Assembly: GCA_951406725.2 (NCBI GenBank) | Contig: OX597835.1 | Span: 24,738,001 to 24,802,000, forward strand | Length of the DNA: 64,000 nucleotides | Reading direction: 5' to 3' | Source: Octopus vulgaris | Lineage: Eukaryota | Shown here: in pieces, positions 51,595 to 63,948 of the stretch | How positions within the stretch are numbered: position 1 is the first letter of the stretch | Layout of the letters: every line of letters begins with the position of its first letter | Notes under the pieces: generated by a model | The model's input: only the letters and a program-made list of their open reading frames with translations | The model's database searches: none | Told to the model about the DNA's origin: nothing | Translations under genes and position numbers: made by a program

Positions 51595-51819
51595 ATTATT
51601 CACATTGGATGGATATGTATCCTCATCTTGTTTGTTGATACCACAACGTTTCGGCTGATTTACTCTCCAGCCTTCATCAAGTGTCCTGGTAGAATTTTGA
51701 ATCCAACCCTTGGACAAAATTCCACCAGGACACCTGATGAAGGCTGGAGAGTAGACAAGCCGAAACGTTGTGGTAACAACAAACAAGATGAGGACACATA
51801 TCCATCCAATGTAAATAAT
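51595..51819. mobile_element. Fold-back element (arms about 110 bp), family H3
   Basis: Imperfect palindrome centred on TCCAA-CCC-TTGGA (51702-51714). Confidence 0.8.
51731..51772 (+). ncRNA. Minimal type-I hammerhead ribozyme, canonical core
   Basis: CAC-CTGATGA-A-GGCT...AGCC-GAAA-CGTT-GTG: stem I CAC/GTG, stem II GGCT/AGCC, palindromic stem III, GUU site. Confidence 0.7.
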
Positions 51820-59526: not shown

Positions 59527-59563
<37 letters not shown>

Positions 59564-59632
59564 AAGTCTAATAATATATATAAATGGGACAAAAACGCAA
59601 TAGAGTACAATAAAACATTCGGACAGATAGAC

Positions 59633-59949
59633 AGAAAATGCTAAAATGATTTTATCATGAAGAACATTTCAGTACCGGTTTCAGCCTTTGCGACTTTTTC
59701 AACTTAGAGTAAAGGATGAAAAACCATTAATTTGTGGGAAAATTAAATGAAATGTATTTTTTAAAAATATTTCCATTGTTTTCAAACGCAAGGGATATTT
59801 TCCTTTTTTTCTGCCTGCGTCTGTCTCTCTTTTTTTTACTCTTGTGGGTTCTTTAGCTCCCACTATTTCTCACCCTAAGCTGAAAAATCCGCAATGACTG
59901 AAACCGGTACAAAAATATTTTTCATGATAAAATTATTTTAGCATTTTCT
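59633..59949. mobile_element. Inverted-repeat element (arms about 75 bp), family H4, with a hammerhead-like motif in each arm
   Basis: Arms 59633-59710 and 59872-59949. Consensus AG-YTGAAAA-AGTC-GCAAW-GACT-GAAA-CCGGTA-CT. Confidence 0.6.
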
Positions 59950-60004
59950 ATCTTGTCTTATTTTGCTTATACTTATCAACTTGTGTGTTCTTTTTCAATC
60001 TTCT

Positions 60005-60104
<100 letters not shown>

Positions 60105-60161
60105 GCTTGCATACCTTCATATATACCTACTTACATACATATATGTGTATGTGTGTGTGTG

Positions 60162-60353
60162 TATAATTTAGAACAAGCAGTAAGCTGTCATTATAGTACT
60201 CGGAGTTTCGAATGTCGGAGCGAAGAGCTACGATGCGTTCTCGGGTTGCGTCTGTTGCCATTAATAGCCGACGAGAATGCATCGTAGCTCTTTACTCCGA
60301 CATTTGAAACTCCGAGTACTGTAATGACAACTTACTGTTTCTTCTAAATTATA
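60162..60353. mobile_element. Fold-back element, family H5, with a hammerhead-like motif at 60264-60322
   Basis: Arms of about 82 bp. ATAG-CCGACGA-GAATG...CATTT-GAAA-CTCCGAGTA-CTGT. Confidence 0.72.
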
Positions 60354-60428
60354 ACGCATATAAATAATCCTCTATTTACCTAATATCGAGTTCTCATTCT
60401 TCTGTTGTCACTTATTATTATTATTATG

Positions 60429-60474
<46 letters not shown>

Positions 60475-60486
60475 AGATCCAAATAG

Positions 60487-60905
60487 TCCTTTCTACTATA
60501 GGCACAAAGCCTGAAATTTTGGCGGAGGAAGCCGGTCGATAAGATCGATGCCAGTACACTACTGGTACTTAATTTATCGACCCCGAAAGGATGAAAACAA
60601 AATCGACCTAGGCGGGATTTGAAATCAGAACTTAAAGACAGACGGAAGCATAATCCAATAAGAACGCAAAAAAATTTTTATTTGGATTATAATTTAGTCT
60701 TATTCCTTGTCTTATTAAAGGCGGTGAGCTGGCAGAATCATTATCACGCCGTGCAAGATGTTCTGAGTTCAAATTCTGCCGAGGTTGACTTTGTTTTTCA
60801 TCCTTTCAAGGTCGATGAAAAAAGTACTAGTTACGTACTGGGGTCGATATAAGACAAAACCCACTCCCCCAATATTTCAGGCCCTTTCTCTTCGTAGAAA
60901 GGATT
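60487..60905. mobile_element. Two divergent SINE A copies (60487-60650 minus, 60718-60905 plus)
   Basis: Family A cores in opposite orientations. Confidence 0.82.
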
Positions 60906-61064
60906 ATTTGTATTATAATTTAGTCTTCGCCACACCCACAAAAAGGTTTTACCATCGTAAAACTAGGATTTTCTACGCTTGTAGGATTTGTGTATTGGTC
61001 TGGAATCCGACAGTGATGATAGCCCAGAACTCGTGCTGAGTGCTTCTCTTGAAATACCTTATTC

Positions 61065-63519: not shown

Positions 63520-63948
63520 ATCATAGGCACGAGGCCTGAAATTTTAGCGGGATGCGGATTATTTTGAATCCAGTAATTAACCGGAATTATTTTATCAAAC
63601 CCCGAAAGGAAGAAAGTCAAACTGGGCAACAATTGAACTCAGAACGTAAGAACGGACGAAATACCGCTAAGCATTTTTGTCCGACGGGCTTAACGATTCT
63701 GCCTGCTCGCTGCTGTAATATACAATAATTTGAAGGCGGCGAGCTGGTAGAATCGTTAGCACGCCGGGCGAAATGCTTAACAGTATTTCGTTTGCGGTTA
63801 CGTTCTGAGTTCAAATTCCGCCGAGGTCGACTTTGCCTTTCATCCTTTCGGGGTCGATTAAATAAGTACCAGTTACGCAGTGGGGTCAATATAATCGACT
63901 TAATCCGTTTGTCCCCTCTGTGTTTAGCCCCTTGTGGGTAGTAAAGAA
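63520..63948. mobile_element. Two divergent SINE A copies (63520-63712 minus, 63733-63948 plus)
   Basis: Head-to-head arrangement. The plus copy is near consensus. Confidence 0.88.

What the first reader, a model, noticed from the sequence alone, without database searches (positions are those of the whole stretch)
60162..60353. 190-bp fold-back with one complete and one core-truncated hammerhead
Seen: the inverted arms (about 82 bp) have microsatellite DNA immediately to the left. The right arm holds the whole motif. The left arm copies it in reverse but breaks off inside the core box. Two arm differences (G-U versus G-C in stem II, U-G versus U-A in stem I) keep pairing. Inference: this matches the inverted partial terminal repeat seen in Penelope insertions, shrunk to just the ribozyme. 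A transcript could fold either as a long hairpin or as a hammerhead.
Basis: partly seen in the sequence, partly recalled or inferred. Interest (0 to 1): 0.7.

Follow-up and report, generated by a model that had tools for sequence, protein, structure and literature searches.

The report
Two-armed Penelope retrotransposon insertion scar
This DNA hairpin is a decayed, back-to-back pair of end fragments of a Penelope-like jumping gene, a layout already known for this class, and its many sister copies nearly always carry the extra "tail" on one arm only, which suggests that both cut ends of the chromosome likely start copying the element's RNA at two different fixed points.

Summary
The fold-back is real: 82-bp arms, 74 of 82 identical, a whole type-I hammerhead motif on the right, a copy cut inside the core on the left. 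It is one of at least 678 copies of the pseudo-LTR end of a Penelope-like element (PLE) whose broken parents encode RT plus C-terminal GIY-YIG with Hydra-clade motifs. The element runs about 115 bp further right than reported (58-bp tail plus (TTA)n). Inversion points vary between copies and no TSD is seen, so it is not a MITE. In 73 of 85 inverted pairs exactly one arm has the tail (42 expected; tail/tail 1 versus 16.5). Either arm can reach further 5', which excludes snap-back copying, and arms share subfamily variants (38 of 40). Best model: two-end priming at two fixed RNA sites. The arm differences are neutral decay, partly CpG, and the hairpin beats the hammerhead fold by 80 kcal/mol, so no switch. 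Inverted arms with a one-sided tail are published for PLEs, and this scan noted the same layout before in this and other genomes. Ordinary, with a modest mechanistic addition.

The parts
60149..60161 (.). (TG)n flank, likely target DNA at the tail-less end
   Evidence: tail-less ends are followed by (CA)n in 28 of 81 and (TA)n in 35 of 81 arms
60162..60243 (-). Left arm: tail-less, 5'-truncated pseudo-LTR copy, cut inside the hammerhead core (47 nt upstream of the predicted cut site)
60244..60247 (.). 4-nt junction filler (GGTT), origin unresolved
60248..60353 (+). Right arm up to the tail-less end point; starts 71 nt upstream of the predicted cut site; 60248-60271 forms the loop of the fold-back
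60254..60331 (+). Type I hammerhead motif: stem I, core CCGACGA (60268-60274, U4C variant), stem II (60275-60305), GAAA, palindromic stem III ACUC-C-GAGU (60309-60317), GUA site ending at 60318
   Evidence: same stem III as Hydra-1/2_aJap in PMC8557442 File S2
60354..60411 (+). 58-bp PLE tail, present on this arm only; in parent elements it continues into the ORF leader
60412..60469 (+). (TTA)n, an expanded form of the 2-5 TTA units at the end of the tail in parent elements, followed by ATATA

Best explanation
This is a decayed insertion of a Hydra-type Penelope-like retrotransposon, made of two 5'-truncated copies of its end repeat joined back to back, likely formed when both ends of the cut target each primed reverse transcription at a different fixed site on the element's RNA. 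Shown: family, parent ORF, variable inversion point, one-sided tail, arms of the same subfamily. Inferred steps: the GIY-YIG domain cuts both strands in (TA)n/(TG)n DNA; one end primes at the distal site (end of the tail), the other at the proximal site about 60-70 nt upstream; both cDNAs stop early, often near the 5' strand of hammerhead stem I; their 3' ends are joined with microhomology or filler. Because the arms overlap in sequence, one RNA would need strand displacement, or two sister RNAs are used. The hammerhead is a passenger from the pseudo-LTR and is predicted to be inactive here.
For: 678 matches of a 28-nt end motif, reversed control 0; 92 compact fold-backs, control 0. Parents: end repeat running into the ORF (L041, L044) and RT-EN-UTR-end repeat in order (L053, L050); tblastn to a 703-aa RT+GIY-YIG relative, E 5e-87 at best. 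Inverted partner in 21 of 60 loci picked by motif alone, 0 of 240 control alignments at the same score. One tail per pair in 73 of 85, permutation maximum 59 in 20000. Tail-less arm reaches further 5' in 22, tail arm in 10, equal in 5 of 37 mixed compact pairs. 3-nt indel variant concordant in 38 of 40 scorable pairs, 20.8 expected, while CpG sites decay independently. In vitro the anole PLE protein cuts and extends both strands and starts at two sites that bound the tail (PMC11167929).
Against: 11 of 85 pairs lack a tail on both arms and 1 has two; some have partial or interrupted tails. PMC11167929 saw no difference in start site between strands, so coupling is not shown at the bench. Concordance cannot separate one RNA from two RNAs of one active source; 18 of 58 pairs were unscorable, two scored pairs are discordant, and three unscorable ones (L002, L003, L009) look discordant by eye. 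35 of 60 motif-picked loci show no inverted partner within about 2 kb. No intact parent ORF was found in 20 RT-bearing loci. Pfam gave no family for the fragments or for six full-length relatives.
Confidence: 0.8

Rival explanations
1. Snap-back: one cDNA folds on itself and is copied back, giving the second arm.
For: Arms share subfamily variants; 26 of 46 compact junctions overlap by 2 nt or more, several at short palindromes (no null control was run).
Against: A copy cannot reach further 5' than its template nor gain a tail that the template lacks, yet the tail-less arm reaches further in 22 of 37 mixed pairs. The window copy itself (tail arm longer) is compatible with snap-back.
Confidence: 0.08
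2. Two separate RNAs, held by a protein dimer or by the palindromic stem III, are each copied from one target end.
For: Stem III can form an 8-bp self-duplex, -7.8 kcal/mol; the anole protein is predicted to be a dimer (PMC11167929); a few pairs are discordant.
Against: Two free RNAs give no obvious reason for the one-tail rule; subfamily mixing is rare (2 of 40).
Confidence: 0.3
3. A MITE or fold-back DNA transposon.
For: Short, inverted arms, many copies, AT-rich flanks.
Against: Centres differ in every copy; arms are of unequal length; shared flank stretches of 10 nt or more in 2 of 40 pairs versus 3.8% in shuffles; sequence is contiguous with a PLE ORF.
Confidence: 0.01
4. A selected hairpin/ribozyme switch at this locus.
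For: The right arm keeps all core letters of its subfamily and weak pairing in all three stems.
Against: 80 kcal/mol gap in favour of the hairpin; even the arm alone prefers another fold (-16.1 versus -9.8); G10.1-C11.1 has become G-U; mutation load (4 and 6 of 82 from the majority state) looks neutral; U4C lowers activity in vitro (PMC3088659 passage).
Confidence: 0.03

Closest known systems
Complex insertions of endonuclease-bearing PLEs (Craig et al. 2021, PMC8557442; passages, section 11 and supplement part 2 read)
   Same: Inverted 5'-truncated copy next to the 5' end, tail often at one end only, microsatellite targets that hide TSDs; Penelope-13_HM is listed with such an inverted copy.
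   Different: Here both arms are cut down to the end repeat; the tail is 58 nt or more rather than 30-40; the one-tail rule is counted.
Hydra clade PLEs, including Hydra-1_Obim (same paper)
   Same: RWK, DKT, CxCX5C and CxxC motifs, C-terminal GIY-YIG, (TA)n targets, hammerhead with palindromic stem III (actc-c-gagt in Hydra-1/2_aJap).
   Different: The hammerhead listed for Hydra-1_oBim has other stems, so this is a different family; all Hydra motifs in File S2 have U4, while subfamily A here has C4 in 107 of 141 arms.
PAc/Poseidon of Anolis (Frangieh et al. 2024, PMC11167929; parts 1-2 of 4 read)
   Same: Two RT start sites bound the tail, downstream of the hammerhead; AT-rich targets; both strands extended.
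   Different: Different clade; that study saw no strand difference in start site and did not address inverted products.
Minimal PLE hammerheads (Cervera and de la Pena 2014, PMC4209133; Results and Discussion read)
   Same: Type I, weak palindromic stem III, predicted dimers; pairs of motifs 100-700 bp apart on opposite strands were already noted in Schistosoma.
   Different: U4C core and a longer stem I and II here; no activity test for this family.
L1 twin priming (recalled, not checked in a paper here)
   Same: Both target ends prime on the element RNA and give an inversion.
   Different: L1 segments are mostly non-overlapping with a variable second site; here the second site is fixed and the arms duplicate each other.

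Membership tests
EN+ Penelope-like element insertion | Parent encodes RT with C-terminal GIY-YIG, flanked by the same end repeat | tested here: met
   (broken copies only; none in this window)
EN+ Penelope-like element insertion | 5' truncation and inverted truncated copy with variable junction | tested here: met
EN+ Penelope-like element insertion | Optional tail at one end | tested here: met
   73 of 85 pairs; 58 nt instead of 30-40
Hydra clade | RWK and DKT motifs | tested here: met
   IKRMRWK in L041, DKTK in L046 and L041
Hydra clade | CxCX5C linker and CxxC in the endonuclease | tested here: met
   CSCRDKDLC and CGLC in L055; mutated in other copies
Hydra clade | No CCHH motif; CxH motif near the C terminus | tested here: inconclusive
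   copies are degraded; no CCHH seen alignments, CxH position varies
Hydra clade | Placement in the Hydra clade of an RT tree | not tested
Hydra clade | (TA)n insertion preference | tested here: met
   a microsatellite follows 59 of 81 tail-less and 41 of 67 tail ends versus 245 of 3000 background 30-mers
Type I hammerhead ribozyme | Core CUGANGA...GAAA...UH | tested here: inconclusive
   all present except U4, which is C, a known weakening natural variant; Rfam no match
Type I hammerhead ribozyme | Three stems with compensatory changes | tested here: met
   stem I changes on both sides across subfamilies (G-C to A-U; A-U to G-C), 81% cells paired versus 31-47% when slid; stem II register differs between subfamilies (24 hand-picked, little-decayed rows, so few independent events)
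Type I hammerhead ribozyme | Self-cleavage | not testable with these tools
   needs an RNA assay
MITE | Fixed internal sequence, equal terminal inverted repeats, TSD | tested here: not met
Non-LTR retrozyme | Tandem non-coding units each with a hammerhead | tested here: not met
   single inverted pair; the end repeat leads into an ORF in parents

The most novel reading that the evidence does not exclude
The two priming events of a PLE insertion are coupled on one RNA: the tail-site cDNA is obligatory, the second target end is placed at the fixed upstream site, and one cDNA displaces the other, with the RT tending to stop at hammerhead stem I. Support: tail/tail 1 of 85; 15 of 16 tail-less copies that are truncated within 120 nt have an inverted tail-bearing partner (four judged by eye), against 5 of 13 tail-bearing copies with any partner; 11 of 30 5' ends fall in a 12-nt stretch over the stem I 5' strand (p 0.003-0.007, window chosen after the fact).
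Probability: 0.45. Interest if true: 0.45.

Novelty: new member of a known kind. Interest (0 to 1): 0.27.

Why it matters
The locus itself is genomic debris. As a set, these scars constrain the unvalidated late steps of PLE insertion: the published in vitro work explains the tail by two start sites but not why inverted units carry it on one arm. The counts here give a sharp prediction for that assay. They also warn that such scars can be mis-annotated as MITEs or as regulatory ribozymes.

Tried and rejected
Rfam at gathering score: no match. Pfam: nothing for two ORF fragments or six relatives. No PLE ORF remnant in the window. TSD search: none above shuffles. A loose 10+10-nt pattern was at control level (54 versus 56) and served only to pick candidates. 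The GGTT filler: a recurrent deleted or spliced form was sought and not found (3 matches, two contiguous with normal upstream sequence); GGTTGCGT also occurs 162 nt upstream in the parent, so a template jump is possible but unproven. A-to-G hyperediting: 3 of 5 non-CpG differences are A-to-G on the + strand, too few to claim. Telomerase-like addition of (TTA)n was considered: (TTA)n follows 31 of 67 tail ends and 0 of 81 tail-less ends, but parents already hold 2-5 units, one about 10, so slippage suffices. Literature searches for a coupled two-site model listed no paper that, from title and abstract start, describes it; older PLE papers in subscription journals are not searched, so absence from print is not shown. 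Supplements of the bioRxiv retrozyme preprint were not seen.

Full report
Observation. The inverted repeat is at the stated place: arms 60162-60243 and 60272-60353, 74 of 82 identical, 28-nt loop; it folds far better than shuffles (z -21.7). The + strand of loop and right arm holds stem I, core CCGACGA, stem II, GAAA, a palindromic stem III and a GUA site ending at 60318. The left arm keeps only core positions 7-9 onward. Rfam finds nothing at gathering score.

Family. A genome search gave 40 scored places of 960 candidates, about half fold-backs of differing length and half single arms. A 28-nt motif matches 678 times (control 0); a two-arm pattern matches 92 places (control 0), including sister subfamilies with CUGAUGA and CYGAAGA cores. 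Copies end at one of two points: a short end at TTATA and a long end 58 nt or more further on, followed by (TTA)n. The window's right arm has the long end (60354-60411, then (TTA)n to about 60469), the left arm the short end.

Parent. Upstream of some single arms lie RT and GIY-YIG remnants. In 20 RT-bearing loci, L053 and L050 run RT, (EN in L053), UTR, end repeat, and L041 and L044 run end repeat, tail, ORF start. Many of 30 further loci show the same tail-to-ORF joint for subfamilies A, B and C. The RT fragment has 361 relatives at E <= 0.001, about 50% identical and mostly about 700 aa, unnamed. RWK, DKT, CxCX5C and CxxC motifs match the definition of the Hydra clade in PMC8557442 (section 11). 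Its File S2 lists Hydra hammerheads with the same stem III but a different motif for Hydra-1_oBim. No tree was built and no intact ORF was found.

How the fold-back arises. (1) Centres vary: in 46 compact pairs the 5' ends spread from about -10 to -118 relative to the predicted cut site; 26 junctions overlap by 2 nt or more, 15 have filler, 5 are blunt (a few rows are misaligned and no null was run). (2) Of 60 loci taken in list order from exact motif matches, 21 have an inverted partner within about 2 kb, against 0 of 240 control alignments; four more show a tail-only inverted stub by eye. (3) Of 85 classifiable inverted pairs (57 family A, 28 sisters; one at a locus edge dropped), 73 have one tail, 11 none, 1 two; 41.9 and 16.5 are expected for mixed and tail/tail. 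The tail score threshold misclassifies a few partial tails. (4) In 37 mixed compact pairs the tail-less arm reaches further 5' in 22, the tail arm in 10, equal in 5, which a snap-back cannot produce. (5) Arms share subfamily variants: 38 of 40 scorable of 58 pairs at a 3-nt indel, 20.8 expected; 7 both-minor and 0 discordant at one non-CpG site; CpG sites decay independently. (6) No TSD above shuffles; ends abut microsatellites, (CA)n or (TA)n after short ends and (TTA)n or (TA)n after tails. With the in vitro result that a PLE protein cuts and extends both strands and starts at two sites bounding the tail (PMC11167929), the simplest model is two-end priming at two fixed sites followed by joining of the truncated cDNAs. 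One RNA with displacement or two sister RNAs cannot be told apart here. 5' ends pile up over the 5' strand of stem I (11 of 30 in 12 nt, p 0.003-0.007; values read, window chosen after the fact), from RT stalling or an RNA 5' end.

The ribozyme. Across subfamilies the core and stem III are kept while stem I changes in compensating ways, so the motif was under selection in the active parents. In this copy it is decaying: of eight arm differences three are CpG changes on the right arm, including G10.1-C11.1 to G-U, and one breaks stem II on the left. The whole transcript folds as a hairpin at -131.1 versus -50.9 kcal/mol with the hammerhead enforced. Minimal PLE hammerheads cleave weakly and as dimers (PMC4209133).

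Comparison and verdict. Inverted truncated copies and one-sided tails are described for PLEs (PMC8557442 passages), and opposite-strand motif pairs for Schistosoma. Earlier notes of this scan report the same layout in this genome and at least 14 genomes; they are leads, not support. Other papers seen: 10.64898/2026.07.22.740005 (part 1 of 5), PMC13282606 and PMC7229834 (passages; no mention of this family found). Verdict: a new member of a known kind, interest 0.27; the counted coupling of start sites is the only part worth a specialist's time.

Noticed in passing
window:17782 and 57965 (+): Two copies of another hammerhead family with the same CCGACGA core and GAAAC..GAGUA site but different stems I and II, ending in AT-rich repeats; a relative lies in L034.
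   Followed up: partly
window:51595-51819: A second fold-back (227 bp, 90%) with a CUGAUGA hammerhead-like motif at 51734; likely another PLE family.
   Followed up: no
window:4627 (-), 27968 (+), 5330 (-), 25031 (+), 18140 (+): Further hammerhead-like core matches in other repeats; 4627 and 27968 are copies of one family.
   Followed up: no
window:61964-62223, 63557-63896, 59530-60042, 60477-60913: Other inverted repeats near the finding; 60477-60913 are two opposed copies of a common SINE-like repeat (label recalled).
   Followed up: no
L020/L021, about 72 nt upstream of the predicted cut site: A pyrimidine tract ending in TAG just before stem I looks like a 3' splice site; in D. virilis Penelope the intron ends at helix I (PMC4209133). 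The window's right arm starts 1 nt before it, but other copies show no peak there.
   Followed up: partly
L133 (G000:C2:4105800-4107000): Fold-back whose flanking microsatellites are also mirrored and that has no tail on either arm; possibly a secondary palindrome or an assembly artefact.
   Followed up: no
G000:C5:123258199, C10:33011788, C18:14157851: Another family of short fold-backs with variable centres, unrelated in sequence past the first 10 nt.
   Followed up: no
L107, L031: Pairs of end repeats in the opposite (3' ends facing) arrangement, about 400-550 bp apart.
   Followed up: no
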